Source of the DNA: Pelagomonas calceolata
Taxonomy: Eukaryota
DNA: 64,000 nt
Assembly (NCBI GenBank): GCA_918797485.1
Contig: CAKKNE010000005.1
Location: 4,712,001-4,776,000 of the forward strand
Direction of reading: 5' to 3'
In this document: one piece after another, positions 9,571 through 59,730 of the stretch
Layout of the letters: the number at the start of each line of letters is the position of its first letter
Position numbering within the stretch: the stretch's first letter is position 1
Program-made: the position numbers and the translations under genes
Notes under the pieces: model-generated
Databases searched by the model: none
Told to the model about the DNA's origin: nothing
Seen by the model: only the letters and a program-made list of their open reading frames with translations

Positions 9571-10619
9571 ATGGCCTCCATCCTCTGCTGCACTTCCGGC
9601 AACCAGACCGTCGAGGCCGTCGTCCAGCCCGCGTGGGACAACCACTTCGCTGCCTTCGGCGGCCAGGACGTTAGCAAGGTCCTGCTCGACTACTGCGAGG
9701 AGTCCAAGATCATCGTCTACAACTGGCACGACGACACCGAGACCGTGTACAACGGGATGGCTGGCGCCTGTGTGGAAATCAAAATTTTACGGCGCGTTCG
9801 TGCTGAATCGTCGCGTCGTCCTCCACGCCATCGACGCGACGCCTGCTCGATGGCGTGGCGATGCCGGTTCCTCGCCGCTCGACCGAGCCAGGACGGAGGC
9901 GTCATTGCCGAGAAATGACTTAGTGAAGAATTGTCGGGTGCACCTGACACACTGGGTTGATTTCCACACAGGCGGGCGCCAAGGAGTGCTTCACGGGCCT
10001 CTTCGCCGCGCTGCCCGATCTCTCGGGCCTCGCCGCGCCGGAGATCCACGTCGAGGAGGGCAACCCGAAGTCGGTCTTCCTCATCTGGCGCTGCCCGAGC
10101 TCGGGCTTCGTGCACTGCACGGACACCTTCCTCTTCAACGACGCCGGCAAGATCGTGCGCCAGACCGTCTGCATCCTCAACCCGGGCGCGCCCGCGGGCA
10201 AGGCGCCGCTCTGCACGGAGCCGCAGGGCGGCCCGGTCCAGGCGTCGTGGGACAACCACTTCGCCGCGTTCGGCGCCCAGGACGTCGACAAGGTCCTCAA
10301 GGACTACACCGAGAAGTCGGTGATCAAGGTCTATAACCAGGTGACGGACGAGTTGGTCGAGTTCAAGGGCCTGAAGGGAGTCAAGGAGTGCTTCACTGGC
10401 CTGTTCAAAGACCTCTCCGACCTGTCGGGGCTCGCCGCGCCCGCGATCCGCGTCGAGGAGGCCACCGAAGACAAGGCGGGCATGGTCTTCCTCGTGTGGC
10501 GCTGCCCGAGCTCGGGGTACAACCACGCGACCGACACGTTCCTCTTCGACGCCGCGGGCAAGATCGCGAAGCAGAATGTTGTCATCATGAAGCCGGCGGC
10601 CGAGGCGGGCGAGCAGTAA
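9571..10619 (+). CDS. tandem SnoaL/NTF2-like domain protein; exons 9571-9759 and 9972-10619 (278 aa)
   Basis: Two internal repeats (WDNHFAAFG.QDV.KVL.DY...FL.WRCPSSG...TDTFLF..AGKI); removing 9760-9971 restores colinearity (NGMAGAKECF vs KGLKGVKECF). Confidence 0.75.
9768..9971 (+). mobile_element. introner/MITE copy 1, full length (204 bp); GC-AG intron 9760-9971
   Basis: Perfect 13-bp TIR CTGTGTGGAAATC/GATTTCCACACAG; TSD gctggcgc/gcgggcgc; internal 12-bp inverted repeat 9823-9834/9847-9858. Confidence 0.92.
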
Positions 10620-10735
10620 GCGCACACGACGTCACATCGCGGAACATGCCGATGTGAAGCCACGAGACGCGTAAGTAATACCAAAGTCTACCACGGGCTC
10701 CTACAATGTAAATACCGGCCGCTAGCCCTAGCATC

Positions 10736-10789
10736 CCTCAAGAACGCCATAGAGCGGCGCTCTGCCACGGACTTCAGGCGAGTTCCGGA
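10736..10789 (+). promoter_or_regulatory. shared upstream block, copy 2
   Basis: cctcaagaacgc..agagcggcgctct.ccacggacttcaggcgagttccgga, ~75 bp before ATG 10864. Confidence 0.6.
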
Positions 10790-10863
10790 GGTACGCCGCG
10801 GAGAGTTCCGTAAAACCCAAACCCAAGGTCCCAAGACATCACGCTCTTCCGGAACTAGCAACC

Positions 10864-11800
10864 ATGACGACGCACGCGAACATCTACCCGACGTTCACCA
10901 TCAAGGACTTCGCCAAGGCGCACGGGCAGCGTCCGCAAAGCCGGGGGCAGCGTGCGCGCCAACGCATGCCGCCATGTGCACATGGGAGCTTGGTCTAGTG
11001 GTAGGATACGCGCTTCGGGAGCGCGAGGTCGCTGGGTTCGATTCCCGCAGTTCCCCTATCGCAGTCGCTGGACGCGCGCACCCCCAACGCAGGCCAAGCC
11101 GCTGCTCGACAAGTGCGTCGAGGACACGAGGGCCGAGGCGGGCTGCCTCTACTACGGCTGGACGATCAAGGAGGACGGCTCGAAGCTCTTCTGCCGGGAG
11201 ACGTACGTCGACGGCGCGGCCGCGGGCCACCACCTCTCGTGCGTCGCCAAGTCCGGCGCGCTCGGGGAGGCCCTCGAGAAGGGCTACATCGCGCTCGACA
11301 ACATCGACCTGATGGGCACGGAATCCGACATCGCCGACGCGAAGAAGGTGCCCGAGTTCGAGGGCTTCGGCCTCGGCTCCTGGACGGTCTGGGACTCGTT
11401 CCAGAACTTCAAGCAGACGTCGGCCGAGGAGGCCTCCACCGCCGACTTCTTCACGATCCAGCCCACGTTTACCATCAAGGACCTGAAGCAGGCGGAACCG
11501 TTCATGAAGAAGTGCGTCGACCTCACGAGGAACGAGAAGGGCTGCATGTACTACGGCTGGACGATCCAGGGCGACAAGCTCTTCTGCCGCGAGGCCTACG
11601 TCGACGCCGCCGCCGTCCAGGCCCACCTCGACAACATCGTGCCGTCCGTCGGCGAGATGCTCGATTCGGGCGCCGCGTCGCTGGACAAGATCGAGTTCCA
11701 CGGCCCGAAGGAGGGCTGGCCGACGTTCAAGAAGAGCGCCGACGCGCTCGGCGCCATCTACTGGGACCGCTACGCCAGCTTCTCCAAGTTCAAGATGTGA
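10864..11800 (+). CDS. tandem ABM-like (dimeric alpha-beta barrel) domain protein; exons 10864-10917 and 11093-11800 (253 aa)
   Basis: Two repeats PTFTIKD...CV..TR.E.GC.YYGWTI...KLFCRE.YVD.AA...HL; GC-AG intron 10918-11092 gives exact repeat alignment. Confidence 0.75.
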
Positions 11801-11870
11801 GCTAGATGACGCGTAATACCAAAGCAGATTCACATCAGAATTAACACGGGGGCGGGGGAGGGAACAGGGT

Positions 11871-12725
11871 TCAGGCGGCGCACTTGGCGGGCGACGCGGC
11901 CGCGAGCTGGAGGAGCATCGCGGCCGGGTCGCTCAGGTCCTGGCGTTCCTTGAGCTTCGAGAAGTACTTGGTCGCGTGGGTCCGCACCTGGGCCGCCGTC
12001 TTGGAGGGGACGTGCTCGGCGACGGTCTTCCACCGCTTGCCGAAGCGGCCGACGGCGGCGAGGAACTCCTCGTGCTCCTCGTCCGTCCAGCGGCGGGCCT
12101 GGCCGCGGGGTTGCTGCCCGCGGGGCTGCTTCGACGGCGGCGCCATGAGCTTCTGCGCGAGCGCCTGCGCCGTCGTCAGGGGCCGCGCGCCGCTGGCGGC
12201 CGCCGCCGCGGCGATCTCCGCGGGGCGGCGCATGTCGTCATGTACCACGGCCTCGCGCGGGCGCTTGCGCGGCGACGTCGCGCGCGGCGACGTCGGCACC
12301 GGGGGCAGCTCCTGCGGCGACGGCGGCCGCCGCCGCAGCTTCTCCTCCCGCGGCAGGGGCTGGCCGCCCGCCGGGTAGGCGTCGCCGTCTTCGTCAAACA
12401 ACCAGGTCGTCGTCGAGCCCGCGGGCGCCGTCGGCGTCCAGCCCGGCCCGTACATCTGCTGGAGCGGCGCGTACCAGGGCTGGCCCGGGATCGATTTCAA
12501 AGGGAGCATGTAGAGCGGCGCGGCGGGCGGCGCCATGAGCGGGAGCGGCATGGCCCGCGCGCCGCCGGCGTTCGTCGGCGTCACCAGCGGCACCCCGGGC
12601 GGCGGCACGTACTGCATCGGCACGAGCGGGCCCACGGTCGTGGGCAGCGGCGGCACCTGGACCGGCGGCGGCGCCAGCGGCCGGGCGCGCACGCCGCAGA
12701 CCGTCGTCGTCGTCGTCGTGGCCAT
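11871..12725 (-). CDS. MYB-related (SHAQKYF-class) transcription factor
   Basis: RRWTDEEHEEFLAAVGRFGKRWKTVAEHVPSKTAAQVRTHATKYF; Pro-rich N-terminus. Confidence 0.88.
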   Translation of the reverse strand: MATTTTTTVCGVRARPLAPPPVQVPPLPTTVGPLVPMQYVPPPGVPLVTPTNAGGARAMPLPLMAPPAAPLYMLPLKSIPGQPWYAPLQQMYGPGWTPTAPAGSTTTWLFDEDGDAYPAGGQPLPREEKLRRRPPSPQELPPVPTSPRATSPRKRPREAVVHDDMRRPAEIAAAAAASGARPLTTAQALAQKLMAPPSKQPRGQQPRGQARRWTDEEHEEFLAAVGRFGKRWKTVAEHVPSKTAAQVRTHATKYFSKLKERQDLSDPAAMLLQLAAASPAKCAA

Positions 12726-13146
12726 TGCGGCGTGGGGAAGGAGCTTGAAGGCGACTGCAGGCGGCGCCGGCTGCCGCGCGCACTCGCTTTTTTGCCTGGG
12801 CTGCTTCTTTGGACCACCTAGGGCCGCGCGCAACGTCGGTGCTGCACTATTTGCGCCGAACAATGCAAATAATTGATGTCGCCTTTTGCTGCTCTCCAAA
12901 CTAGAGCACCGATATAGCCAACGTCATCTGGATACATTTGGTGTGCGCGCACCGGGAGCTCTCCACGGGACGGCTCGGGGGCCCCCCACGAGGCGTACGG
13001 CCGCTTTGAGTTGGGCAGCCCACGATATCCTTGCCGCGGCCGCGGGGCTGCCTTGAAGGCGGGTCCCGCCATCCGCAAGCTGCAGAAGAGTGTCCAGGGG
13101 TATTGTAGGCATCCGCCGTGGGGCGACCTGTACGAACCTCACTTGG

Positions 13147-13166
13147 CTAGCGTTGTAAGACACTAG
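13147..13166 (+). promoter_or_regulatory. recurrent promoter motif
   Basis: CTAGCGttGTAAGACACTAG between divergent MYB and PsbP genes. Confidence 0.7.
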
Positions 13167-13230
13167 CAAACATGCAAGCCGAGCACCGCAGCCTCACGCC
13201 GTCGCATTGGTCGAATAGCGCACCAAGAGC

Positions 13231-13803
13231 ATGCGTTTCCTACTTCTCGCAACGCTGGCGCAGCACACGCACGGACTCACCCTCCCGCGACGACGCCTGG
13301 GACAACTGAGTGCTGCAGCAGCAGTGGCAGCAATCAACAGGCCAGCACGAGCGGCGCGCATCAATAGCGAGGGCTTCGCCTTCGACGCGCCCGACGGCTT
13401 CGAGGCGAAGCCCAAGCCGGTCAAAACGCACGCCGCCGAGGTGTTGTACAAGAACGGCAAGCGGGAAATTGGGGTCGTCGTCGACCGCGTGCGCATCGAG
13501 CAGCTGTCGGACTTCGGCACGCCGGCATTTGTGGGAGACAAGGTCGTGGCCTCGGAGCGCGAGCGCGACGGCGTCACGGCCGCCGAGCTGTCGAAGGCGA
13601 CGGAGCTGGTCGTCGACGGCCAGACGTACTACGAGCTCGCTTATAGTAATGAGTCGTCGCGGGGCAACAACAACTTTTTGAGCCGCGTCGCCGTGCGCGG
13701 CGGGCGGTTGTACGTGATGACGCTCAAGGCGCGCGTCGACGACGCGGGCGCGCTGCCCGAGCTGAGAGCTGTTGCCGAGAGCTTTCGGGTAAGTGGATTG
13801 TAG
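13231..13803 (+). CDS. PsbP-domain thylakoid lumen protein
   Basis: Signal peptide, RRR twin-arginine-like lumen transit ending ARA; KPKPVKTH; LSDFGTP; YYELAY; GGRLY. Confidence 0.85.
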   Translation: MRFLLLATLAQHTHGLTLPRRRLGQLSAAAAVAAINRPARAARINSEGFAFDAPDGFEAKPKPVKTHAAEVLYKNGKREIGVVVDRVRIEQLSDFGTPAFVGDKVVASERERDGVTAAELSKATELVVDGQTYYELAYSNESSRGNNNFLSRVAVRGGRLYVMTLKARVDDAGALPELRAVAESFRVSGL

Positions 13804-13832
13804 TGATCCTTGACGTCTTCGGATGAGTGCCC

Positions 13833-13860
13833 CTAGCGGCCTGCATAGGTAAGACACTAG
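13833..13860 (+). promoter_or_regulatory. recurrent promoter motif
   Basis: CTAGCGgcctgcatagGTAAGACACTAG, 220 bp upstream of BTB gene. Confidence 0.65.
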
Positions 13861-14080
13861 CAAGCTGGCTGCCGGCCCAAAACAGGTCCCGCTGGCTGTG
13901 ATAGGCTTGAATAAGCTTGGTGACGTCTTCAGTAGCATCAATTATCTTCGATTGCTCACGTGCAACGCGAATTTCGCAGCGCTACGTACACTGAGCTTGC
14001 ACAGACTGCACTGTCACACGCGCTGCTCGCGTGCGAATTGCTGGGGCGCGCGACGCGCCAGCAACTAGACTGACTGCAAA

Positions 14081-14920: not shown

Positions 14921-14992
14921 GATGTACCTCTAAGTACTTGTGTAGAATCTCTCCAGGGGCACGCCGCCGCCGCGCGAGACTACGGATCATGC

Positions 14993-16612
14993 TTAGGCGG
15001 AGGACTGAGGCAGCTCGTCGGGCCAGTCGTCCGTGTCGCCCGACGCGCGGAACGCCCGGATGTTCTCGACCCACTCCGTCTCGCCCTCCTTGATCCTCAG
15101 ATTCCCGACGAGGATGGAGTTGTTCTGGTGGTCCTTGGACGCGGCGACCTTCAGGCGCAACGTGCCGGAGACGCCTCTTGCTTTCAACTTGAAGTTGATG
15201 AACCCGTCCGTCGACGTCTTGCCCGACTTGGACTTGGGGACGAGCTTCGGCACGAGCGGTCTGTCGTCTTTTGTGGAATTAATGCCCTTCATAATCAAAC
15301 AACCGCCGGCCGCTTTACCGGAAGGCGCGTCCAGTACCAAAGCGCCGGTGGCGTTCCGGTAGTTCGCGGGGCCCTTAAAGCCCGGTTCGAGCTTTTCCTC
15401 GGGGTCCTCGGGTACCCCCGCGTTGTCTTTCACCCTCCTGGTATAGTACCTACCAGTAACGGCGACGAAGGCCTTGTCCGCCTCGACCTCGTCGGCCGTC
15501 TTTTCGGTCGTGTCGCGCTTCTTCACGGGTCGCAGGTTGGCCAACAACGCCTGTTGCTTCTGGGGGTCGTCAATCGTGATGTACTTCCTTGCTAGATCAT
15601 GGGCCAGGTCGGCCTTCTTGGCACCCAAATCCAAGATACCTTGTAGTGTAGTACCACTCTTGTACGTTTCATAAGAATCATAAGATTTCGTATTGGCCCG
15701 TTTCGGGTTCTCCTGGAGGCACGTGCACGACTCGCCCATGAAGGCTTCCAAACACGACTGCGGCAGCTCGAGCTTGGGCGCTTTTTCTTTTTTTTCCTTC
15801 TCGACCTTCGGCGACGGCGGCGGCGGCGGGTTCGACGGGCGGTAGACCGTGCCAACTTGTTCATTTGGCGTCGGCGGGCCGTTGTTGGGGGTTATACCCA
15901 AGGCTTTCGCCTTGCCCTGCCTAAATTCGTCGTCGTCGATGATGCCGTCGTCATGTAAGCGTTTGAGCTTGCGCAGGGCTTCCTCGTCGATGGGGTAGGG
16001 CCCGACGAGCGTCTCGGGGCCGATGTACGGTACTGGTGAAGATCTCTGCGCCGGTGCATCATCATCGGTCTTCTTCGCGCGCTTCTTACTCGGTTTCTTG
16101 GCCTTGATTTTGCGCTTGACGACGGGCGCGCGCTCCTTCCAATCATCTCTATCTTGCTGGGATAGGGCCTTCCACATCTTGCCTAATTCCGCAATGATCT
16201 TCTGGGACCGCTCGCGCGGCGCCAAACCCTCCATCGCATTTACTCTTGTGGTGACTTCGGGGCGGTGCTCGTTGCTGAAGTGGAGGTAGCCGCTCACCTG
16301 TGTGGAAATCAAAATTTTACGTTCGTGCTGAATCTTCGCGTCTACCTGCACGCCATCGACGCGACGCCTGCTCGATGGCGTGGCGATGCCGGTTCCTCAC
16401 CGCTCGACCGAGCCAGGACGGAGGCGTCATTGCCGAGAAATGACTTAGTGAAGAATTGTCGGGACGCACTGGTTGATTTCCACACAGCCCGACACCTTGG
16501 CCATCTTGTAGCCCTCCTCGACCTCGTCGCCGTTCTCGTCCTGCTCGTCGTCGTCATTCAAGGCGTCGTCCTCAATGGCGCCGACGTCCATGGCGTCGTC
16601 GCGGTCGGCCAT
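14993..16612 (-). CDS. HMG-box protein; exons 16612-16496 and 16297-14993 (473 aa)
   Basis: Acidic N-terminus spliced to K|VSGYLHFSNEHRPEV...IIAELGKMWKALSQQDRDDWKERA HMG box; SHOCT-like LRKLKRLHDDGIIDDDEF. Confidence 0.8.
16298..16487 (+). mobile_element. introner/MITE copy 2 (190 bp), opposite orientation relative to host gene compared with copy 1; GT-AG intron 16495-16298 on minus strand
   Basis: Perfect TIRs; near-identical to copy 1; gene-strand TSD gtgtcggg/gtgagcgg. Confidence 0.92.
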
Positions 16613-16893
16613 CTTTTGTTTGCGCGCTTTGCGGGAGGCTGCAGCGCTTTTCTAGCGCCGCGCGCGCAGATCGGTCTCTGTGGAGTAATTGAGACCGCGT
16701 CCTACGGCGTGCGAGAGCCGCTTTCTAGGCAGCGCGCGGAACCGGTCCTCGGAGAGATTTGAGACCGCGGCGCGCGCAGCAGCGTATGCACAGCGGCTGT
16801 CGCAGCACTGCTACGCTACCTGCTTGTTCACCACGAACTGCGGCCCGCGTTCTGGGCCTGAACTGACCGCGGCCAATTTGGACCCGCAGTTCG

Positions 16894-17862: not shown

Positions 17863-17879
17863 TTTTTGTTGTCGTGTAC

Positions 17880-18893
17880 TTATTGCAGCGGAGTCCTCAC
17901 CGTGAGAGCCTCGACGGAGTCGTCGTCCGACTCCGACTCCGTCACGCGCTGGTGGACCCACTCGTCCGCGACGGAGTCGTACTCTTTTTTCTTCGAGCCC
18001 TCGCGCTCGACGCGCTCGCGGCTCACGGCGGAGTAGAGCGAGAGCGACGCAAGAACCAGCGCCACGGCGGCGGCGAAGAAGGGCGCCGCGGCCGAGAAAT
18101 CGCGCTTGGTACGTCGCGTACCGCGCTCGGCCGACGTCTTCAGGCCGAGCCAGAGCGAATAGCCGAGGCCCAGACCCAAAGCCGCGGCGACGGCGCCCAC
18201 AATCTGGATGCCGCCCGAGAGGCGACCCTGTTTCTCGGGCGGGACGACGCCGTTGATGTACAGGTACTGGAGGTTTGCGGGCGCGGCTATGAATAGAACG
18301 GCCGTGGCTGCGAAGAGTAGTCCTACATCATACGCGGCGCCGATGCCCAAGAAACCGACCGCATGTATGATTAATCCAATGGCGAGGCACTTCGCCGGCC
18401 CCACTGCCTTTCGCAGCCAGAACCAGTACAGGACGAAGCCGACCGCGAGCGTCGCCACGGCGACGGCGTGCAGCTCAAAGTAAAGACGTTTGGATAGGTC
18501 GAAGCGCCAAAGCAAAAAGTATGCCAGAACGGGCATCGACGCGGCAATTCCCAGGAAATTAAAGAAATAGGACCTGTGTGATAATCAAGCAGTGAGGGCC
18601 TCAAATACCTCCACGCCATCGAGCAGTGACAGGGACAACGTCACGTCGATGGCATAGAGCGCGAAGACCGCCGCCCGCACGGGGTCATCTCCGGCGAGCT
18701 TCGTGACGTAGAGCGGCAGACAACTGAAAAATACGCCCCCGCCGACACCCTTCAATGTATGCCACAATATGAACGCGAAAAGCGCGTCGTTCGCGCGCTC
18801 GGCGGTTTCGTGGGCCGAGGTCCAGACGCGCTCGGCCGTCTGGACGAGGGGCGTCGTCTCGACCTTTTTCTTGGACGAGGCGGCGGCGCCCAT
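17880..18893 (-). pseudogene. MFS transporter (TetA/MFSD14-like), apparently missing TM2-6 at a one-ended introner; truncated gene or pseudogene
   Basis: 5' ORF has one TM then runs into element-like sequence; 3' part (18572-17880) encodes ~6 TMs with V.PEKQGRLSG motif. Confidence 0.5.
18574..18656 (+). mobile_element. one-ended degenerate introner copy
   Basis: ctgtgtgataatcaagcagtgag matches start of copy at 44739; contains ctccacgccatcga...gtcgatggc internal palindrome; other TIR not found. Confidence 0.65.
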
Positions 18894-19208
18894 GGCTGTT
18901 TTCTAGCCGACTTGCGCCTTGGCGCCCTCCCGCGCGCGTGCTTTAGCTAACCTGGATAGCCAGCCTCCTGAGAGATCTAGTACTCCTCGCTCTCTCAGCG
19001 CTATGCTTCGATGCGTATCGACTATTGTCAATAGAAATCGAGTACCGACCTGTCCTGTCGCATCCTCGCGTACCGCGCGGCGTGAGGAAAGAGATGGGCA
19101 TAAGCTTTGGTTGGGCCTAAACCTTGCACTTGAGAGCCATCCCTGTCCTTAGAGCCGTATAGAAAAGAACACCAGAGAGGCAGGCGTCTGCGGAAAAAGA
19201 GTTTCCGG

Positions 19209-20246: not shown

Positions 20247-20282
20247 TGCTGAATAACATCGTAAGAAAACAACTTGTTAGTA

Positions 20283-23801: not shown

Positions 23802-23905
23802 CCCACCTAAAGCGCGGGAGCCCTGGAAGCCGCGCCCCGGGGACGGGATCTCCTCAAACTGGCTCATTGCCGAACTGACTCATCGCCAGGCACGCGCCTT
23901 GCTTG

Positions 23906-24849: not shown

Positions 24850-26016
24850 CTAGTTCAGGAACGGGTCCGCCAACAGCATCCGAAAGAACTTCCCTCCTTC
24901 CCCGAACTCCTGCTTCGCCGCGCGAAGCAATCCGAGGCATTCGTCCCTCCGGTCGTCGTCGCGCAGGGCCAGCAAACAAACGCCCACCGTCGCCCGGCAG
25001 TGAGCTCTTTCCCGTTCGGGCACTGCCTTCATCTCGATCTGTGGAAATCAACCAGTGCGTCGGGTGCACCCGAAAATTCTTCACTAGTCTAGTCATTTCT
25101 CGGCGACGACGTGGCCGCGCTGGCTCCGTCGAGCGGTGAGGAACCGACACCGCCACGCTATCGAGCAGGCGTCGCGTCGATGGCGTGGAGGTCGACGCGG
25201 CGATTCAGGACGAACGCGCGCCGTAAATTTGATTTCCACACAGATCTCCACGTCTTGCTCGGCCACCAAGAGCGTGCGTTCCACGACACCTAGGAGTCGG
25301 GCTGGGTCCTCTCCTTTCTCATAAATCATCCGCAGATTCCTCAGCATCCGCGCTGCCAGCGAGAGACCCTCGAGAGGGGAAACATCGGTCAGCTGCGACC
25401 GCGCGTTCTCAAGCACGTTTCCGCCCCCGAACGCGTCCACCACAAAGGTCTCGGAAGTGTCGTCCGGAGCTACTAGAACATGCATCGGCGTGTTGAGCAG
25501 AGAGAACGGTGTGCCCGCGGCGGCACAAGCTCTCGCAAAAACCAAGCTCATCGTGATCGGGATGCCTCGGCGTCTCCGAATGACTTCGTCGATGAGCGAG
25601 TTGGCTGGATTGTAGTAGTCGTCGACGTCTCCCGCGAAGAATTCAATTTTTGTATTGTTCTCCTCGGGCAGGCCCTGATCGCCGAACATCGCAGCACCGA
25701 CAGCGCGCGCCACGACCGCCGCACCGCTGCGGTCCCCGAGCATCAGCTCAAGGCGTGCGCGCGTCGTCGCTCGGGCAGCCAGCTCGTCCAGCGCCTCGGT
25801 GACTCGTTTTTCACAAGCGGAGAGCGGCTCGTCTGGCTTCTCTTCGGCCGCGATTGCTATAGCGATTGCGAGGTCGTCAGGTTTGGGACGTGCTATCTCT
25901 GCGGCAAAAGCATTGCGCGCCTCGCAACCGCTACGGAGGCGTGCGTCCTGCAGCGGCGTCAGCGCTGCTGCTGCTGCTGTGCATGTCAGCAGCCAAAGTG
26001 TTGCACGGTGCAGCAT
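24850..26016 (-). CDS. SirB1/Transglut_core2-like protein; exons 26016-25252 and 25038-24850
   Basis: DYYNPANSLIDEVIRRRRGIPITMSLV; P.H; VVDAFGGG; RMLRNLR..Y; splice gives AEQD|IEMK. Confidence 0.8.
25039..25243 (-). mobile_element. introner/MITE copy 3 (205 bp); GT-AG intron 25251-25039 on minus strand
   Basis: Reverse-complement homologue of copy 1; one TIR lacks 2 nt but keeps CAG; gene-strand TSD gtggagat/atcgagat. Confidence 0.9.
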
Positions 26017-30373: not shown

Positions 30374-33119
30374 ATGATGCGCGCCGAGACGCGCCAGTCG
30401 ACCGCGGCGGCCGCCGGACCGCCCGCGAGCGAGCCCCCGCCCCCGAAGGCCAACTTCGAGCCGGAAGACCGGCCGAAGAAGGAGCCCACGAAGCCCGAGG
30501 CGTTTTTGGCGCGGCAGCGCCAGCTCGGGAGCCTGGGCGGGAAGTGCGCCGGTAGTGTTGGAGAGAACAAGTTCTTGGTGGAGGTCGCCGTCGACGGGCG
30601 CGCGAGGTGTCAACTGCGGACGTGCAAGGAGCCTCTCAAAATAGGAGAATTACGTTTAGGGAAGCGGCCGCCGTCGCGACCTGTGTGGAAATCAATTCTT
30701 TACGAAGTGGTGATGAACCGGCATCGCCACGCCATCGAGCAAGACGATTCAGTACGAACGCGCCGTAACACACAGGTCGCTGCGCCACGGCCACAACCCC
30801 AAGGTCACGTGGTACCACCCGGAGTGCGCCATGAAGGCCTTTCTCGCGTGCTCCGCCAAAAGCAGAGTAGTAGAGAAAGTCGAAGATATCGACCACGGCT
30901 GGGACGCGCTGTCTGACACGAACAAAGCCTTCATTCGATCCATCGTCGACGGCGCGCCGAAGTCGCAAGCGCCGCGCAAAATCCAACGGAAGCCGTCGCC
31001 GCCCACCGAGAAGATCAACGAGACGGACGAGAGCTTGTGGGTGCCGAAGCGGGGCGACGACTGCTACAGTTTGTGGCGGGGAGTCTGGTACCCGGCGAAG
31101 ATCGTGAGCGTGATCCGAGACACCTACGAGGTCCATTATAGTGGATGGGGCACGCAGCACGACCACTCGACGTCGCGGAAGCACTTAAGACACAAGGACT
31201 ACGACTTCGACCTCGACGACCCCAGCGCGCCGAAGCCGGCGCCCCAGCCCTCGCAACACATCCTCCGGTCGAACCAGCAGCCCGAAAGTCCGGACGCCGG
31301 CCGCACGGGCTTGTACCGGTCGCCGGAAAAGGGCTCGGACGGCGCGCCGTTGCACAACATGTTGGATCTGTTCGCCGAATCTTCGGATGAGGAGGACGAG
31401 AAGGACTCGCGGAAAGCGTGTGAATTGAGAAGGGTCGGCGGGCCCTGGCGGAGGTTTAGTTCGAGAAAAGCCGCCGCGAAGGCATTTCCCGGTGCCATTA
31501 CCTCCTCCGACGTCTCGCGACTCATCGCCGCCCCCGATAAATGTCCCCGCAGAGTGAGGGACGCCTTCGAGGCGAGGGAGGTGCGGTCCATGAAGCGCTG
31601 CCCGGCGTGTGGGGTTGAGCGCGCCCATCCCGCCATGTTCCGCGACGACACCGGCCGCTCGACGAAGAACTGCAAGAAGTGCCCCCAGGAACTCGAGGAG
31701 AACCCCTACGCCAAGACCTATGGCAAACGGCCCACGGCGCCGCCCACGGCCCATTCGGCGCCGGGCCCCGCCTGGGAGCACCGTTCCGTACAAAAGCGCA
31801 AGCGGCCGGGCGGGCTGCGCGCCGCGCCGCCGACGAAACGGCGCGCCGATCTGGGCTACGAGCCCTCCTCGTCGAAGAGTGGTGGTCTCAGGGACGTCCT
31901 CCAAGCGGCCCAAGCGCTCGCGCCGCCGCCGCCCGGCTCCAAGAAGACGGGCCCCGTGCCCGTGAAGTTGAGTGCGGTCAAGGTCAAACAATTACTCATG
32001 ACGGACAAGGCGGACATGAGAGGGGAAGAATTGTGCGCCGCGTTGGACGCGGGCGGCCCGAACCAGACCCAGGACGACTACGGTAGATGTGGTGGCATGT
32101 TGAGTGGAAGGTTGGGGCCGAACAAGTTCTGCGTGGACTACGAGAGACAGATCCGGTCGAAGTGTAAGCGGCTGCGGTGCAAGCGGTCGTTCAACGATGG
32201 TGAATTACGCGTTGGTAAAATACCACCTAGGGCGAGAAAAGATGTACCAGCTAGACGGGTCCACTGGTACCACCCCGCTTGTATTTTCAAGAGCTTTGAG
32301 CGCGCTTCCAAAAAGACGAAGACGATCGACACTGTGGAGGACATGGAGGGCTTCGCCGAGCTCAAGGAGGCGGACAAGGCCGACCTGACCTCGCGCGTCG
32401 CGGCCTGGGTCGCGCGCAAGGCGGCGATGAACGCCAACTACAAGCCCAAGAAGCGCAAGCGCCGGGGCGGCGACTGGCTGCCGTCGCCGACACAATCCTT
32501 CGACAACACGGCGTCCTTTGATGATGGAGAGGAGGACGACGGTGAAGAGGAGGCCGACGAGGAGGCTGTGGACTTGCTGGTGGGCCTCACGCAGCAGCGG
32601 CCCGCCGTCGCGCGGTCGCCGCACGACGAGGGCGCGGCCGAGCTCCTCGCGGCGCTCGCCGGGTCGCCGCCGCCTCCATCAAACGCGGCGGCGCCCTCCT
32701 CCACTGAAACGTTCGCCGTCGGCGACGTCGTCGAGGCGAATTTTGAAGGCGCGGGACACTGGTACCCCGGCAGAATTGCGTCGTTGGACTCCGGGAGCTA
32801 TGAAATTGCCTACGACGACGGCGAGAGCGAGTCGGGCGTCTCGCCGGCCGACGTGCGGCGCGCGCCGGCGCCGCCCCCCGCGGGCGGCGGTTATGTGGAT
32901 GCGGTCCTCACGGCGCCGCCGGCATCAACAGAGGAGATCGCGCACTCCGAGGCCCCGAAGCCCGCCGAACCCCCATCCACGGTCATCACGCCCCCCGCGA
33001 CGCAGTCGCGGCCGCAGCTCGACGACGAGAAGGAGCGGCTGCGCCTCGAGCGAGACGCTGCTCGTAGAGAGCTCGAGGCCCTCAAGGCGCAGCTAGCTCA
33101 ACAATCCTCCTCTGCTTAA
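30374..33119 (+). CDS. protein with two PARP-type zinc fingers and Tudor-like domains; exons 30374-30672 and 30776-33119
   Basis: Splicing completes zf-PARP (RARCQLRTCKEPLKIGELRLG...WYHPEC); second zf-PARP (RSKCKRLRCK...HWYHPACIF); WYPAKI...YEVHYSGW and WYPGRI...YEIAYDDG Tudor-like motifs. Confidence 0.82.
30681..30775 (-). mobile_element. internally deleted introner copy (95 bp); GT-AG intron 30673-30775
   Basis: Left TIR perfect, right reduced to cacacag; internal blocks are reverse complement of copy 1; TSD gtcgcgac/gtcgctgc. Confidence 0.85.
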
Positions 33120-43599: not shown

Positions 43600-45429
43600 A
43601 TGCGAACACCAATGAGTGCACGCGTCGCGCCTATGGAGCAGGCGCCGGCGCCAGCGATGTTGGTCCCTTTGGACGCACCCGGCGACCAGCGTTTGGCGCT
43701 GGGGCTGGACCTGCGAGCCGACGAGGTGCGATGCGTCGCGCTCTGGCACGACGGGTCGATCGTAGCGCCGGCGGTCACGCACCGCCTGGAGAACGTGGCC
43801 CTGCTGGGCGCCGTCGCGGCGCTGGCGAACGCCGCGCGAGCGTACGTTTCTGATGTGGGTCGCGCGTGGGCGGACGTCGCCTGCGTGGGCGTCGCGCCGC
43901 CGGGCGAGGTCGAGGAGGACGTCGTGACGGCGCCGTGCTTCGGCTGGGTCGCCGCGCCGCTGCGACGCGCGCTCGCGGACGCGCTCGACGTGCCGACGGC
44001 GCTCGCGCGGCGCGCCGAGGCTTCTCTGTTGGCGGAGGCGCGGCCCGGCGGGGCTGCGGCGCCACGCGAGGGAGATGAAGGGTCGGCGGCGTTGCTTGCA
44101 TTGGGCGACACCGTGGAAGGCGCGCTCGCGCTGAATGGTCAAATCAGAAACATGGACGCCGCGCAACTGATCACAGACGGGACAGCGGAAACGCTGGCCG
44201 CCGCGTGCCTCGCCATCGCCGCGATCGCGGATCCGGACGTCATCGTCGTCGCGGGAATCACGCCGGCACTCCACCGTGCCACCGTCGACGCGGCGTCGCG
44301 GTCGCCGGTCTGGATCGCGAGCGGCCGCGCGGCGATCCGCCTCGCGCTGTGCGGCGACGACGCGCTGGCCGTCGGCGCCGCGGCGAAGGCGGCGACCTGC
44401 TTGGAAGACGACGACGAGCCGATGGAAACGGTGCGGGAGATGCGGGCCGCCGAGACGACGACGACGCCCGAGCACGTGCCAAAGTACTTTCTGCGCGCGG
44501 CGACGGAGGAGGAGGACGCCGGTGCGCTGGTTGATATATGCGTCAGGACAGGGGGCGCGGGCGGCTCTGACGCCTCGGCCCAGTTCGCGCGCGACCCTGG
44601 CATCCTCGGCGAACGCTATGCCCTGCCGTACCTACGCCTCGAACCGGAGCTCTGCGCAGTCGCCGTCGAGAGCGAGACCGGCTACATCGTGGGATACGCG
44701 GTCGCTACTTTAGATACGGGCGAATTTTGCGCGCGTATCTGTGTGGAAATCAAGCAGTGAGTGAGTTAGGTCATCGCCGTCGAGCCGACGCGGTCACGGG
44801 ACGTCGTGTCGATGGCGTGGGGCGCTTGAAATTTCATTCCCACACAGGCCCGAATACAGCTGGAATACCTACCGGGCGTGCGAGACAGGTATCCCGATCC
44901 GCACCAAAAACCGCGCGCTGCCTGGAGCGCCGAGGATCTCGTGGCCAGGGACCTGCACGATCCACTGTGCGGTCGGCCGCCGCGGGGGCTGGACGACGAC
45001 TTCTACGCGGCGCACCTGCGCGTGCACGTGCTGCCGGAGGCGCGGCGCGCCGGTCTTGGCACGCGCCTCGCGACAGAACTGCTTGGGCGCTTGAGAGAAG
45101 CGGGCGCGCGGGGCTGCCACGCTGCCGTCCCCGCGGCGGACGTGCGCGCGCGGCGCTTCGCCGAGTCCCTCGGCTTCCGGCCGCTGCCGGCGCCGGGATA
45201 CTTCGGGTTCGCGTTCAACGACGATGATCCGGGCGTCGCGGAGACGAAAGCGGAGACGCCTGGTTCCGCGGTTCGTGGCAGCCGGCGGGGCGTGGCATCT
45301 TGGGTCGGTAGCAGTGGCGGGTTGCTGGGGGCCGCCGCGGAGCGAGCGTACCACGAGACGCCTGCGAAAATGAGCTTCGGGGCCGCCGCGATGGCGTCCG
45401 CGATGGCGGCGCGCGCGCGAGTGACATAA
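43600..45429 (+). CDS. ROK-like domain fused to GNAT acetyltransferase; exons 43600-44730 and 44848-45429
   Basis: LGLDL, VGVA.PG.V, DPDVIVVAG, ALAVGAA (ROK); ICVRTG..G.DA, YA.PYL.LEP, AHL.V..LPEARRAGLG (GNAT). Confidence 0.7.
44739..44847 (+). mobile_element. shortened introner copy (109 bp); GC-AG intron 44731-44847
   Basis: Left TIR perfect, right cattcccacacag; TSD gcgcgtat/gcccgaat; in-frame stop inside. Confidence 0.85.
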
Positions 45430-54163: not shown

Positions 54164-54312
54164 CTATGCTGGATTTAATATTTCCAAAGCGCTACCGGGC
54201 CTAAAACGGCTAAAAACACCTGATAGCTGCTAAAAAAGGCATCTCTGCAGTCGCTGCGCGCTGCTGCCTAGCCTTCGTGCCGTCCGTGACCACCGCTGGC
54301 ATCCCAAAAAGC

Positions 54313-55419
54313 ATGGCCCAACAAATCGAGTGCGCCGCCGCCCCGGTCCTCTGGTCCGACGGCTTCGAGACGACTACTTCGAGCAACGCCACGACGCTGG
54401 TCCGCGCAAAGAACGTAAGAAGACGCTTCCTCCGCATCTACGACGACGCGATACCAAACGAGCTCTGCGCGGCGCTGGCCGACGACGCGGTAAAACGAGG
54501 GCGGCCCTGGGGCTGCTACGTGCCGCTGGCGGATCTTGATAAAGAAGATGCCGAGGAAGAGGGCCCGGTCGACGACGCGACGCGACAACAATGGGCGCGC
54601 CGCGTCGTCCGATCAGTACTAGAGCGAAGTAAGGAAGACATCTCGCTGGACGCGGCGCACGGCGTCGCCGTCTGGTGCCTGGCGTCGCCGGAACGGGGCG
54701 CCGTCGACTACCACGTCGACTACTGCGAGCTGCACCGCCGCGAGACGAACGAGATCGTTATACCATTGTACGCGTCGACGGTGCACGTTGCGGACTTGGA
54801 AGACGGCTCTCATATCAATGATGAAAGGCGCATCGAGGGCGGCGCCTTCCTCGTGAACTCGCGGGGCTTGAATCACTACGCCGAGTGCGGCTACAAGGGC
54901 CGGCTTTGTGCGAATGCTTTCGAGGGCAAGAACTGGCACCGTGTTCCTTATCGGCGGGGCCGCTGTACAATCCACGACGGCGAGTGGCCCCACGCCGCCG
55001 AGGAGACGACGCGGCTGCCGGCCGGCAAGCGGCGCGTCATTCTGGGTTTGAATGTGTTTGGGGCCAACGTCGCCGAGGTGAATTTAAGGGCGCCCGAACA
55101 CTCCGACGCCTTCAACAAGACTGTGAAGCTGTATCAGGCCGCGGGCAATACGGGCGGGGGGCTGACCGTCGAGAAGCTGGCGAAAAATAAACCCCTCGCG
55201 CGGCTCTTCGTCGGCCTCGCGCGCGCGCGGCAAGATTCTGAAAGTACGGACGTGTTCGAAACAGGCGAGCGCGTCCGGGCGCGCTGGCGCACGGGCGTGC
55301 GGTTCCACCCGGCGACGGTGTCCAAGGTGCGCGAGGACGGGTGTTTGGATTTGGTGTATGACGACGGCTTCAAGTGGGACGGCGCGCCCGCGGGCGTGGC
55401 GCGGAAGATGGGTGGGTAA
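54313..55419 (+). CDS. 2OG-Fe(II) oxygenase-like protein with C-terminal Tudor/Agenet-like domain
   Basis: HVD and distal H (DGEWPH) with R..LGLN; GERVRARW...FHPATV...DLVYDDG. Confidence 0.65.
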   Translation: MAQQIECAAAPVLWSDGFETTTSSNATTLVRAKNVRRRFLRIYDDAIPNELCAALADDAVKRGRPWGCYVPLADLDKEDAEEEGPVDDATRQQWARRVVRSVLERSKEDISLDAAHGVAVWCLASPERGAVDYHVDYCELHRRETNEIVIPLYASTVHVADLEDGSHINDERRIEGGAFLVNSRGLNHYAECGYKGRLCANAFEGKNWHRVPYRRGRCTIHDGEWPHAAEETTRLPAGKRRVILGLNVFGANVAEVNLRAPEHSDAFNKTVKLYQAAGNTGGGLTVEKLAKNKPLARLFVGLARARQDSESTDVFETGERVRARWRTGVRFHPATVSKVREDGCLDLVYDDGFKWDGAPAGVARKMGG

Positions 55420-55506
55420 TGAATTTTTGAGATATACCTACGTGTACGCTGTCGCCGCGACGGCGGCGACGCGATGATACGACCAATAGAGTTACGCACT
55501 AATGAC

Positions 55507-57306
55507 CTAGAACTCGGGCGTGTAGAGGAACCGCAGGATCCAGGGCATGGACAGCTGCGTCGCCGTGAGGAAGAAGGGCCCTATCAAAGGGATCGTCATC
55601 ATGAGGTCGAAGTCCACGAGCAGGTCCGACCCGAGCTGCGCGAAGCCCTGCACGATGGACGTCCTAAACACTCTCTTGCGCGAGTACGATCCCAAAGCGC
55701 CCGCCGTCTGCTTCGTGTGCTGCACCGTCGCGAGCTCCTCGGCTAGGCGGTAGCCGTCCTCGGTCGACTGGCAGCCGCCCTGGCCGAGGTTGGGCATCAT
55801 CGGGTGCGCCGCGTCCCCGCAGATCGCGACCCTACCAGAAGCCCAGGGCGCGAGCCACCGCTTCGGGTCCCACGTCGCTAAGAGAGGTGCGCCGTCGTAG
55901 AGATCTCTCCTCTTAATATCCTCCTCGGGCGTCGCGTCGACGAGCTCCAGCGCGAAGCCGTCCCAGACCTTGCCGTCCTGGTCGCACGCGTAGGCGTCGC
56001 CGTTCGCGAACTCTCTCCTCAAACGATCGAGCTTGGGCGTCGGGTTCTCCGGCGTCGGCTCCGGGTCGACACCGCCCGCGTCTTCCCTTATCAACGCGAA
56101 CCACTGCTGCCGCTCGCCGCCGCCGTCGGTGCTCACAAAATACTTCTTGTCGCCTAGCAGGATCTGGTAGGAGACTTCTTCGATGTTCGACGCCTTGTGG
56201 TTCGCGAGCGCCGCGTAGCACGTGAAGCCCGAGTACCTCCGCAACGCCTTCTGGGCCACGCGCACCGTGTCGCGCGCCATCTTGCGCGCCTCGGCCTCGT
56301 CCAAGGCGCCGCCCGCCGCGCCCGACGCGGCGTCGCCGCCCGCGCCTTCATCTAACCCGTGCATGATCTTGCGCACGGACGACCAGACGCCGTCCGCGCC
56401 GACCAGCACGTCCCCGAACGCCTCGGTGCCGTCTTCCAGCGTGACCTTGACGCAGCCGCCCCGGTCCTCGTAGTCCACGACGCGCGACTTGATTCGAACT
56501 GTATCGGCGGGGAAGCCGTGCTTGACGAAGATCTGCTGGATCACCGGTCTATCTACAACGACCGTGGGAGGCAGCTCGGCCTCGAGCGCCGGGCCTAATG
56601 TATCAAAACGCACGAGCCAGTCGCCCTTGTCGTACAAACCCGCGAGCTTGTTGCCCCGCTTGTAGCCGATCTTCAGGCCAGATACCCTATCGGCGGTGCA
56701 CGTGCCCGCTTGCACGAGATCCTCATAAATCTGGGGGTTGATGCGCTGGATGGCCCGCAGCGCATTACTCTGAATCTGGATGGGCCCGCCGTAGGGCGCG
56801 TAGGACGACGCCTGCTCGAAGAGGGCCACCTTCATGCCCTTGGAGTGGCACGCGGCGGCCGTCACGAGGCCGGCCAAACCCCCGCCTGCCACCAACACGC
56901 GCAGCGGCTCGTCCGTCGTGAGGTCCCTCTCAGTACCCTCGCCGGCGGGCGGCGGCGAGCGCCACCAGGCCGTCTGATCGGCGTCGCCCGTGAGCATGCC
57001 GCGCAACGCGGCGGCGTCGGCCGCCGCCGTCCGCGCGCGCGCTCTTACTTCTTCGACGCGCTCCGGCGACTCTTCTACCCTCTTCGGCGCCGTCGGCAGC
57101 GCGAAGATGCGCTTGGCCGAGTCGGGCGTGTTGACCTTGTTTTCTTTCGGCGCCTCGCCCTCGGCGAGCCACGGAATATCTAACTTCGCGTCCCGCAGCA
57201 AATCGGCGACGGCGTTCGTGGGCGCGAGGCGCTGGTGCGGCGTAGTGGGTGCGACGAGTGCGTGCGCGGTGGCCGCGAGCCCGATAATGAGTGGGGTGCT
57301 TGGCAT
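55507..57306 (-). CDS. ZEP: zeaxanthin epoxidase
   Basis: [65 protein letters not shown]. Confidence 0.93.
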
Positions 57307-57564
57307 GGCTGCAAGCTTTTTATTTACAAGGTTGCTTGCGGAACTGGTGGTCTGCTGCAGGAATGTGTACTGTACTGATGTATTGGTACAACCAAAACGC
57401 GTCGACGAGGCGTTAGCCGCGTCTTGCCACGACCACGATCTTGGGCAAGCTAAAGCTGTGATACAAGTGCCACCCTGCGCGCAGCTGCGGTTTTTGCGAA
57501 GACAACTCGTCGCGCCGTCAAGGACGTGCTGTAGACAAGAAGGAAAGAGGGAATTATCCGGGGG

Positions 57565-57584
57565 CTAGCGGCCATAGACACTAG
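57565..57584 (+). promoter_or_regulatory. recurrent promoter motif (variant)
   Basis: CTAGCGgccatAGACACTAG between ZEP and glutaredoxin. Confidence 0.55.
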
Positions 57585-57708
57585 CAAAGCTGAGAGGCAT
57601 CGTCTGGGGGCTGCGGAGCGGGCGTGGGAGGCCCTTTCGCGAGCGTTAGGCTGGTCCACGAGTCGCCCAGGACCGCTGCGCGACGCTCCAGGACCGCTGC
57701 TCAGTACG

Positions 57709-58254
57709 ATGCCGCGCCTCGCGGTGGCGCTGGCGCTCTGCGCCGCAGCGTCTGCCTTCCAGGCGCCTGTGTCGCAGCCCGCCCGCAGCAGCCTCGCGCG
57801 GCACGCCGAGGACCCGACGAAGGTCTGGTACGCCGACCTCGCGAACGGCGTGCAGAACCTCCTGCAGAACTCGCCGCTCAACGAGGGAAAAAAGGCCGTC
57901 GTGAAGATGATGGCTGGTGGTTACGATGTCGCCGCGACGAACGAGAAACTGGACGAGCTCATCGCGAACCCGGTCGTTATGCTGTCGTTCACGAAATGAC
58001 CCTTCTGCATCAAGGCGAAGCAGCTGCTCGACGCCAAGGGCGCCAAGTACGTCGCCTACGAGCTCGACCAGGCCGACGACGGGCCAGCCATCCGCGCGGA
58101 GATGTGCGACCGTATTGATCGTACCTCAGTCCCGGCCATCTGGATCGACGGCGTCTACGCCGGCGGCTGCAACGACGGCGGGCTGGGGGGCGTCGTGAAG
58201 CTCGACCAGCAGGGCCGGCTCGACGAGCTGCTCAAGGCGGCCGGCGCCGTCTGA
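57709..58254 (+). CDS. selenocysteine-containing glutaredoxin (UPFC), plastid-targeted; TGA 57997-57999 = Sec97
   Basis: ASA-FQAP presequence; FTK-TGA-PFCIKAK; frame continues through RTSVPAIWIDG..AGGCND to stop 58252-58254. Confidence 0.9.
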
Positions 58255-58264
58255 AGGAATCCCG

Positions 58265-58334
58265 CGCGGCGGCGATGACGCGCGCCCGCTCTCTTTTCTC
58301 CGAGCGGGCGCGCCGACGATATTATGTAGCCGCG
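58265..58334 (+). promoter_or_regulatory. SECIS-like element of glutaredoxin
   Basis: ATGAc + 12-bp perfect stem gcgcgcccgctc/gagcgggcgcgc + cGA; lower helix cgcggc/gccgcg; apical loop lacks AA. Confidence 0.75.
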
Positions 58335-58562
58335 TAAGGACGCCTGTGTTTAGTACGCTCCTGCTGTTCTTCACTCCCCCTCGCCCATTACTAGTGGTTG
58401 CAAACGAAGAGACTTGACGGCCTCAGAGGACCCGGATCGTGCGGGACACATGCCTGCTTCTGCCTCACAAGCTCCTCCTCTTGGGGCGCTGTAAAATCGA
58501 TTCGCGGGACGCTGTGAGGTCGCGGAGCGACGAGGCGTTCGCCCGGTCGCGGCACCCACACG

Positions 58563-59730
58563 ATGCAGCCCCAGCAGCCGCCGGGCTTCTCTCCAGAACT
58601 TGGTGGAGAGGGAGAGTCCAATGCTGTCGTCATGGGAACAGTCGTCGAGGGAACAGTCGTGCAGCCGCCCGCCCAATCCGTAACAATCGTGCAGCCGGCC
58701 GCCCAACCCGTGGTCCTCGCCCCGCAAGATGTACGTGCGCGCGGCCTCGCCGTCGTGCAGCCGCAGCCGGTGTACGGGCAGCCCCAGCCCCAGCCGCAGC
58801 CCGTCGTCGTGCCCCAGCAGCCCGGGACGTACGCGCAGCCGCCGTACGGGCAGCCCCAGGGCCAGCCGCAGCCCGTCGTCGTGCCCCAGCAACCCGGGAC
58901 GTACGCGCAGCCGCCGTACGGGCAGCCCCAGGGCCAGCCGCAGCAACCCGGGACGTACTACGCGCAGCCGCCGTACGGGCAGCCCCAGGGCCAGCCCCAG
59001 CAGCCCGGGACGTACTACGCGCAGCCGCCGCCCGTGGCGTCCAAGGTGATGCCGATGCCCATGAACGGCCAGATGATGATGCCGCAGATGATGATGCCGC
59101 AGGTGGTACGGGCCCCCGGCCAGTGGAACGGCGGCCAGCCGTGCGGGTGTTGCGACCCGCCGGGCGGCTGCCAGCTCTGCTGCGCCACGTGGTGGTGCCC
59201 GTGCGCGCCGGTAGCGCAGCTCCACGACCGGGTCGTGAGGCCGGGGAGTCACGGGGAGGTCTTCGCGGTCCTCTGCATTGCGCCGGCCCGCGCGGAAATC
59301 ATCTTAAACGGATGAACGCCGACACACCGGTTGCTTTGCACGCAGGCGACGGTTTTCAAGACGGTCGTGAGCTTGCTTTTGACGGCGGCTGGGGTGAACA
59401 TCGACGGTATGCTGCAGCGTGGAATCGTCTTCGCGTCGAGGGCGTGGGGGGCTGACGCGGTCGATCGTCCGCACAGGCCTGCTGAACATGCTACTCGCTT
59501 TCCTCTATTTGCTTTACATGAACCAAATAAGAGAGGCCATCGTCAAGCGGGACGGGATCGCCGACCGCGGGCTTATCTGCTGTGGCGACCCTTGCTGCGA
59601 CAACTACTGGTGTTGGCCCTGTCTGACTTGCTTCTTCATCCGGCACGAGCTCAACAGGAGCGGCGAGACCTACGACGACTGTTGCGGGCCCAGCTGGTCC
59701 CGCGGCGGCGGGCGGGCGCACGTCGTCTGA
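58563..59730 (+). CDS. PLAC8-family Cys-rich membrane protein with P/Q/Y-rich repeats; exons 58563-59279, 59346-59406, 59477-59730
   Basis: W.GG.CGCC.......C..WWCPC...AQL; IR..I..R.GI...CC..YWC.PC; two short introns restore frame. Confidence 0.75.
59288..59345 (+). mobile_element. highly decayed introner relic; GC-AG intron 59280-59345
   Basis: ccgcgcggaaatc vs TIR ctgtgtggaaatc; ends gacacaccggttgctttgcacgcag vs gacacactgggttgatttccacacag; TSD gcgccggc/gcgacggt. Confidence 0.7.
59415..59476 (-). mobile_element. highly decayed introner relic; GT-AG intron 59407-59476
   Basis: cagcgtggaatc...cgcgtcgagggcgtgg...gatcgtccgcacag; TSD gtatgctg/gcctgctg. Confidence 0.65.

What the first reader, a model, noticed from the sequence alone, without database searches (positions are those of the whole stretch)
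9760..59476. Introner family: an 8-bp-TSD MITE that makes introns in either orientation
Seen: a repeat with TIRs CTGTGTGGAAATC...GATTTCCACACAG at 9768, 16298, 25039, 30681 and 44739, plus relics at 18574, 59288 and 59415. All lie inside coding sequence, and seven are flanked by imperfect 8-bp direct repeats whose first copy starts GT or GC on the gene strand. Cutting from the first TSD base to the TIR-terminal CAG restores the reading frame in all seven two-ended copies (e.g. completes a zf-PARP, an HMG box and a tandem repeat). Because the TIR ends in CAG on both strands, both orientations work (copy 1 versus copy 2 relative to their host genes). Known: introners as non-autonomous DNA transposons that carry one splice site and co-opt the other were described in Aureococcus and Micromonas (Huff, Zilberman and Roy 2016). 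Inference: this family made 7 of the 8 introns I can delimit here; the transposase is not in the window.
Basis: partly seen in the sequence, partly recalled or inferred. Interest (0 to 1): 0.85.

Follow-up and report, generated by a model that had tools for sequence, protein, structure and literature searches.

The report
Known intron-making transposon of Pelagomonas
Copies of a small mobile DNA element sit inside genes of the marine alga Pelagomonas calceolata and, at the four copies checked in RNA, are cut out as exact introns whichever way they face; this kind of element is already described in this species.

Summary
Confirmed, but already known. The window is Pelagomonas calceolata: three NCBI proteins equal its spliced ORFs. 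Raw polyA reads show the predicted junctions at E1–E4 (773, 181, 33 and 74 reads, one sample), in both orientations. E5, R2 and R3 rest on annotated or transcript-derived proteins only. In 92 two-ended metagenome copies the duplication is 8 bp (45 perfect), and 64 of 64 strand-called copies start GT (53) or GC (11). The window is itself empty, with one 8-mer, at two sites where relative L018 has an intron. Correction: the 18574 relic is a one-ended remnant in a gene that lacks about 200 codons. Published work lists 956 such elements in this species and a 202-bp hAT-classed family with the same splice mechanism; splicing in either orientation is reported for Aureococcus. One addition: the target 8-mer is palindromically biased (A at position 7 in 29 of 64 against 11.1 expected), like hAT nTnnnnAn, which would pre-supply GT donors. 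No transposase was found.

The parts
9760..9971 (+). E1 intron (212 nt, GC..AG): first TSD copy 9760-9767 plus 204-bp element, orientation A; host is a SnoaL-like tandem-repeat protein
   Evidence: 529 + 244 spliced reads, none in DNA contig runs X3 and X12; junction collinear with the gene's second repeat
9972..9979 (+). E1 exonic TSD copy (1 mismatch)
16298..16495 (-). E2 intron (198 nt, GT..AG): element 16298-16487 in orientation B plus TSD copy 16488-16495; host is an HMG-box/SHOCT protein
   Evidence: 53, 24, 41 and 63 spliced reads; HMG profile starts at position 5 in exon 2
18574..18651 (-). R1: one-ended remnant (right TIR and downstream target GTCCTATT kept; left limit approximate) in an MFS gene lacking about 200 codons; NCBI model splices 18630-18574 from a GT inside the remnant
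   Evidence: joint not among the rows shown
25039..25251 (-). E3 intron (213 nt, GT..AG): element 25039-25243 in orientation A plus TSD copy 25244-25251; host is a transglutaminase-like protein
   Evidence: 13, 11, 8 and 1 spliced reads; Pfam
30673..30775 (+). E4 intron (103 nt, GT..AG): TSD copy GTCGCGAC plus internally deleted element, orientation B; splits a zf-PARP finger
   Evidence: 9, 21, 16 and 28 spliced reads; zf-PARP positions 1-26 in exon 1
44731..44847 (+). E5 intron (117 nt, GC..AG), second subfamily; host is a ROK + GNAT protein
59280..59345 (+). R2 intron (66 nt, GC..AG), decayed copy, shared by most relatives; host is a PLAC8 protein
   Evidence: CAH0378101.1 lies within the doubly spliced ORF exactly; similarity to E1 above 500 of 500 shuffles
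59407..59476 (+). R3 intron (70 nt, GT..AG), decayed copy
60108..60115 (-). Empty site: a single 8-mer where metagenome contig L018 has a 174-bp family element between two copies of it
60319..60326 (-). Second empty site: L018 has a 203-nt GC..AG intron here, weakly related to the family
61995..62025 (.). TIR-less internal fragment in non-coding DNA between PCNA and a convergent ORF

Best explanation
These are copies of a short inverted-repeat element, likely a non-autonomous hAT-type DNA transposon, which RNA reads show spliced out as exact introns in either orientation at the four copies tested. Inferred: a transposase encoded elsewhere inserts the ~203-bp element and duplicates 8 bp of target. 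Shown at E1-E4: the intron runs from the first base of the upstream copy (GT or GC) to the AG that ends the TIR, so one target copy stays in the mRNA and the protein is unchanged. Shown: the TIR supplies CAG on both strands, so both orientations splice. Inferred: insertions without GT/GC on the coding strand are purged, and the transposase's own palindromic nTnnnnAn (GTnnnnAC) bias raises the share of usable insertions from about 17% to about 37%. Copies later shrink by internal deletion to 60-120 nt while keeping the 3' CAG.
For: Junction reads at E1-E4 on the gene's strand; no E1 joint in two DNA runs. Annotated or transcript-derived proteins match the splices at E5, R2 and R3. TSD test on 92 two-ended copies peaks at 8 bp: 45 perfect, mean identity 0.845, against 0.20-0.35 for other lengths. 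Of 76 unique copies with at most 2 TSD mismatches, 68 had enough flank and 64 had a confident coding strand; all 64 start GT (53) or GC (11), with 26 in orientation A and 38 in B. Empty sites: L018 versus window; E5 site continuous in proteins from contigs of up to 325 kb. Target bias: A at position 7 in 29 of 64 against 11.1 expected, AC at 7-8 in 14 against 3.4, holding in perfect TSDs, both orientations and all three phases. Hermes hAT target is nTnnnnAn (PMC2803484 passages). P. calceolata fam2 is classed TIR DNA/hAT.
Against: No transposase was found in 49 window ORFs or exons, in 89 of 203 candidate ORFs from the metagenome loci, or as a hAT/MULE entry in the stored, truncated gene table of the genome paper, which held one Tc1-like gene. 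The TIR begins CTG, not the (C/T)A(A/G) I recall for hAT. All RNA came from one sample. E5, R2, R3 and R1 were never seen in reads here. At empty site 60108-60115 the single 8-mer begins CT like L018's exonic copy, not GT like its intronic copy, so that site may be an intron loss or a donor gained after insertion. The 64-copy set was selected on one intact element end and mixes lineages.
Confidence: 0.92

Rival explanations
1. The introns spread as RNA, by reverse splicing and reverse transcription, as proposed for fungal introner-like elements; the inverted ends only fold the RNA.
For: E1 RNA folds strongly (z -6.8). Nearly all copies lie in coding sequence. No transposase was found.
Against: Copies lie in both orientations relative to the transcript (26 A, 38 B), which reverse splicing cannot give. 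Each copy has a locus-specific 8-bp duplication. The target bias is palindromic.
Confidence: 0.02
2. The elements jumped into introns that already existed and did not create them.
For: R2 is shared by nearly all relatives, so its origin is not seen.
Against: Intron ends coincide with the TSD start and the TIR end. Relatives lack any intron at the E5 site (34 of 37 continuous), and the window lacks the L018 introns.
Confidence: 0.02
3. The splicing mechanism is as described, but A at TSD position 7 comes from selection on the donor (U1 pairing at +7) or on a longer RNA stem, not from the transposase.
For: Intron position +7 can pair with U1 snRNA (recalled). All 64 copies are coding insertions that survived selection.
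Against: The stronger U1 positions +3 to +6 are not enriched (A 8, A 9, G 11, T 11 of 64). The enriched AC is the reverse complement of GT at positions 1-2, whereas GC at 7-8 is not enriched (10 against 7.9).
Confidence: 0.2
4. The mobilising enzyme belongs to another superfamily with 8-9-bp TSDs (MULE, P, Merlin, Zisupton; recalled) rather than hAT.
For: The TIR starts CTG. The published hAT call rests on a RepBase blastn hit (hATv-2N1_EHux), and a sister family was classed Mariner with a 9-bp TSD call.
Against: The TSD is strictly 8 bp and the target is nTnnnnAn as for Hermes.
Confidence: 0.25

Closest known systems
P. calceolata introner fam2 (and fam1), Gozashti et al. 2025, PMC12130899, supplementary file sd07 (table rows seen)
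   Same: Same species. 340 copies, 202-bp element with 13-bp TIR, classed TIR DNA/hAT, gt 281 / gc 42, ag 323, 'co-opt 5' carry 3''. Here the modal length is 203 bp and donors are GT 53 / GC 11.
   Different: No sequence is given in the supplements searched, so identity rests on matching properties. Their rows give no TSD length for fam2 or fam1 and no orientation or target consensus. Fam1 (83 copies, 'direct insertion') may be the other orientation or the second subfamily (inference).
P. calceolata putative introner elements, Guerin et al. 2022, PMC9481584 (passages of main text and Suppl. Note 3; bioRxiv passages)
   Same: 956 putative IEs, intron-length peak near 210 bp, GT and GC donors, AG acceptor, conserved TIR.
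   Different: In the passages read: no TSD, no orientation analysis, no empty sites. The logo figure could not be seen.
Aureococcus anophagefferens introner elements, Huff, Zilberman and Roy 2016 (not held; seen only through citing papers)
   Same: One splice site carried and the other recruited from the TSD; about 210 bp; either-orientation intron creation, which Roy et al. [quoted passage not shown]
   Different: Different genus. Sequence relation not tested. GC donors are commoner here (11 of 64) than in Aureococcus fam1 and fam2 (10 of 316, 9 of 457).
Hermes hAT transposon (PMC2803484, passages)
   Same: 8-bp TSD with consensus nTnnnnAn.
   Different: Hermes is autonomous. This element has no ORF, no partner was found, and its TIR begins CTG.

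Membership tests
TIR/TSD introner elements (Huff 2016 type) | Many sequence-similar introns at unrelated sites, similarity running to the boundaries | tested here: met
   28 near-full-length copies, mean pairwise identity 0.915; varied host genes
TIR/TSD introner elements (Huff 2016 type) | Terminal inverted repeats | tested here: met
   15/15 in E1 and E2; decayed in the others
TIR/TSD introner elements (Huff 2016 type) | Locus-specific target-site duplication | tested here: met
   8 bp; 45 of 92 perfect
TIR/TSD introner elements (Huff 2016 type) | One splice site carried, the other co-opted from the TSD, with exact splicing | tested here: met
   junction reads at E1-E4; 64 of 64 GT/GC
TIR/TSD introner elements (Huff 2016 type) | Introns made in either orientation | tested here: met
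   E1 and E3 versus E2 and E4 in reads; 26 A and 38 B
TIR/TSD introner elements (Huff 2016 type) | Empty orthologous sites with one target copy | tested here: met
   DNA level only for L018 elements against the window; protein level for E5; not shown for E1-E4
TIR/TSD introner elements (Huff 2016 type) | Insertion in nucleosome linkers | not testable with these tools
   no chromatin data
P. calceolata fam2 of Gozashti 2025 | Species, length about 202 bp, TIR, donor ratio, co-opt 5' / carry 3' | tested here: met
P. calceolata fam2 of Gozashti 2025 | Sequence identity to the published family | not testable with these tools
   TIR string absent from 14 supplementary files searched
hAT superfamily | 8-bp TSD | tested here: met
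hAT superfamily | nTnnnnAn target preference (Hermes type) | tested here: met
   coding insertions only
hAT superfamily | TIR beginning (C/T)A(A/G) (recalled, from no call) | tested here: not met
   the TIR begins CTG
hAT superfamily | Cognate hAT transposase between the same TIRs | tested here: inconclusive
   none found; whole genome not available

The most novel reading that the evidence does not exclude
The transposase's own palindromic target preference (nTnnnnAn, GTnnnnAC) pre-adapts this hAT-like MITE to be an introner. It lands on GT about four times as often as chance on either strand, so roughly a third of exonic insertions are born as perfect introns. This would explain why some 8-bp-TSD transposon families, and not others, become mass intron generators. 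Gains and precise losses of these introns also differ among wild Pelagomonas lineages. I did not find the target-bias link in print, but could not read Huff 2016, which may show it.
Probability: 0.5. Interest if true: 0.42.

Novelty: already known. Interest (0 to 1): 0.22.

Why it matters
It is a clean, RNA-verified case of how a DNA transposon makes new spliceosomal introns without changing the protein, but both the mechanism and its presence in this species are published. What could add to the literature is the measured target-site bias, which gives a simple prediction for which transposons turn into introners. The presence/absence differences among wild Pelagomonas could also be used to time intron gain and loss in a very abundant ocean alga.

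Tried and rejected
No whole genome is held, so the genome-wide count and the search for a long TIR-bounded element could not be run. Huff 2016 was not held by DOI or PMC id.

Search for an autonomous partner led nowhere. No transposase domain was found in 89 of 203 candidate ORFs from the metagenome loci. One-ended loci were contig ends, worn right TIRs or truncations into ordinary coding DNA. The 53 viral-contig hits to the 15-mer have no internal similarity and are treated as chance. The genome paper's gene table was cut when stored and showed only a Tc1-like gene.

In one search, element reads from other loci crowded the joint table, so E2 and E3 were seen only. DNA run X12 ('organism B') matched the window with 0 differences in its listed pieces, so it gave no empty sites. 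One X3 contig with G at 9762 might be an allele or another copy; unresolved.

My first reading of R1 as an 87-nt TSD intron (18660-18574) was rejected. The second repeat (TAAGACACTAG) is not this family: it has no TIR and sits upstream of genes. Fourteen of 92 metagenome copies with 3 or more TSD mismatches were dropped before the target statistics (some are evident chimeras, e.g. L012), then 2 duplicates, 8 with short flanks and 4 with an unclear strand. Earlier findings of this scan held nothing on this genome or sequence. Figures of papers and bioRxiv supplements were not visible; a TSD logo there could bear on novelty.
Full report
Observation. The repeat is real and far above chance: 7 exact TIR 13-mers against 0 in 30 shuffled windows. 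Five main copies and three relics lie at the stated coordinates. E1-E3 are 87-90% identical over about 200 bp, E4 is an internally deleted copy, and E5 and R1 align better with a second subfamily that shares the TIR. All seven two-ended copies have 8-bp flanking repeats with 1-3 mismatches. Removing the upstream copy plus the element opens a long frame on the strand where the cut reads GT/GC...AG.

Organism. The window is 63% GC, and the runs that hold it include marine metagenomes. Three NCBI proteins of Pelagomonas calceolata match spliced window ORFs letter for letter: CAH0378101.1 (R2 and R3 removed), CAH0378093.1 (E5 removed) and CAH0378075.1 (part of R1 removed).

Splicing. Raw stranded polyA reads show the predicted joints. 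E1 skips 212 nt in 529 and 244 reads, with no such joint in two DNA contig runs. E2 skips 198 nt in 53, 24, 41 and 63 reads, E3 skips 213 nt in 13, 11, 8 and 1, and E4 skips 103 nt in 9, 21, 16 and 28. E1 and E3 face one way relative to their genes, E2 and E4 the other, so both orientations splice. At E2, 30 sense-strand reads cover the intronic base 16488 against 181 joints, so retention there is at most about 14%. The four RNA runs come from one sample.

The family at large. Of 122 matches, 92 were two-ended with flanks. The duplication test peaks sharply at 8 bp (45 perfect; mean identity 0.845 against 0.20-0.35 for other lengths), and 87 of 92 offer GT or GC in at least one orientation. 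After dropping 14 copies with 3 or more TSD mismatches, 2 duplicates, 8 with short flanks and 4 with an unclear strand, a codon model that ignores splice signals called the coding strand for 64. All 64 begin with GT (53) or GC (11) on that strand, 26 in one orientation and 38 in the other (p 0.17 for equality). The modal length is 203 bp, and 49 of 76 copies are under 200 bp.

Empty sites. Locus L018, 194 of 202 nt identical in a shared exon, carries a family element between two 8-mers where the window has a single 8-mer at 60108-60115. It also carries a second 203-nt intron absent at 60319-60326. At the first site the window's 8-mer matches L018's exonic copy (CT...) and not the GT-bearing intronic copy, so precise loss or a donor gained after insertion are both open. 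At the E5 site, 34 of 37 informative family proteins run through without a break (the count includes the annotated protein and possible transcripts), some on contigs of 287-325 kb, and 3 read into an element. R2 is present in 57 of 60 informative relatives and is old.

Target bias. Against a background matched for codon phase and donor, position 7 of the 8-mer is A in 29 of 64 (11.1 expected), and positions 7-8 are AC in 14 (3.4 expected). This holds in perfect TSDs (18 of 35 against 6.0), in both orientations and in all phases. GC at 7-8 and the U1-type bases at +3 to +6 are not enriched. AC at 7-8 is GT read on the other strand, so the simplest reading is a palindromic transposase preference, nTnnnnAn, as for the hAT element Hermes (PMC2803484 passages). 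Read from the non-coding strand, the intrinsic chance of GT/GC is about 24 of 64 (37%) against 17% background. This step is inferred, because only surviving coding insertions were sampled.

R1. This relic keeps its right TIR and the downstream GT-starting target but has lost its left end. Full-length homologues have about 200 residues between 'RAAIFAL' and 'SYLFN' that the window gene lacks. The NCBI model splices from a GT inside the remnant, and an MMETSP protein reads it unspliced. Sense expression is low (depth about 1-7) under an abundant antisense transcript. It is most likely an ordinary insertion later cut by a deletion.

Transposase. None was found in 49 window ORFs or exons, in 89 ORFs of the loci, in viral contigs, or as hAT/MULE in the truncated gene table of the genome paper. 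No whole genome was available.

What is known. Guerin et al. 2022 report 956 putative introner elements in P. calceolata with GT/GC donors, AG acceptor, conserved TIR and a 210-bp peak (passages). Gozashti et al. 2025 list fam2: 340 copies, 202 bp, TIR DNA/hAT, 'co-opt 5' carry 3'' (table rows). Roy et al. 2020 describe 8-nt-TSD classes that make introns in either orientation as similar to what was reported for A. anophagefferens (passages). Gozashti et al. 2022 (passages; supplement rows) give the general catalogue. Huff 2016 itself I could not read. Sequence identity with fam2 could not be checked.

Verdict. The observation and the mechanism are right and now have RNA support. It works like, and on every tested feature is, a TIR/TSD introner. 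It is very probably the published P. calceolata family. hAT membership is likely but unproven: one recalled TIR feature is not met and no partner was found. Novelty: already known. Interest 0.22, mostly for the target-site bias and the presence/absence differences.

Noticed in passing
window 10918-11092 (+), tRNA at 10984-11056: A tRNA-Pro(CGG) gene lies inside a predicted 175-nt GC-AG intron of an ABM-domain gene. Removing the intron restores the ORF, and RNA depth drops to about 31 inside against about 556 nearby. It is unrelated to the introner family.
   Followed up: partly
window 60489-60001 (-); TGA at 60324-60322: AhpC/TSA peroxiredoxin-like gene with an in-frame TGA where the catalytic Cys is expected (PKADTGG*T), conserved in L018 along with a conserved 3' region; likely a selenoprotein. 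L018's second intron sits 2 nt before that codon.
   Followed up: partly
window 972, 6821, 13156, 13850, 16904(-), 19220, 21742, 23790(-), 23916(-), 26152(-), 39452(-), 43343, 47704(-), 52261(-), 54152(-), 60611(-): A motif CTAGCG-N-TAAGACACTAG recurs 16 times, mostly just upstream of gene starts, with RNA 5' ends near 16853-16863 and 23810-23823; a candidate core-promoter or 5' UTR element.
   Followed up: no
window 18349-18960 (+): Abundant polyA transcript (depth 200-300) antisense to the broken MFS gene that holds R1.
   Followed up: no
window 17883-18893 (-): The MFS transporter gene lacks about 200 internal codons relative to homologues; the deletion ends inside the R1 element, and DNA run X3 shows the same structure.
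   Followed up: partly
loose read ends at window 9786, 25040, 30672: Hundreds to thousands of polyA reads come from element copies at other loci that run unspliced into their flanks, so some copies elsewhere are retained or lie in UTRs of highly expressed genes.
   Followed up: no
window 11130-11571, 14323: Variant positions at 20-50% in RNA and in DNA contigs, consistent with heterozygosity or a collapsed duplication.
   Followed up: no
L059, L072, L114, L020, L039: A second subfamily with the same TIR but a different interior (up to 197 bp), to which E5 and R1 appear to belong.
   Followed up: partly
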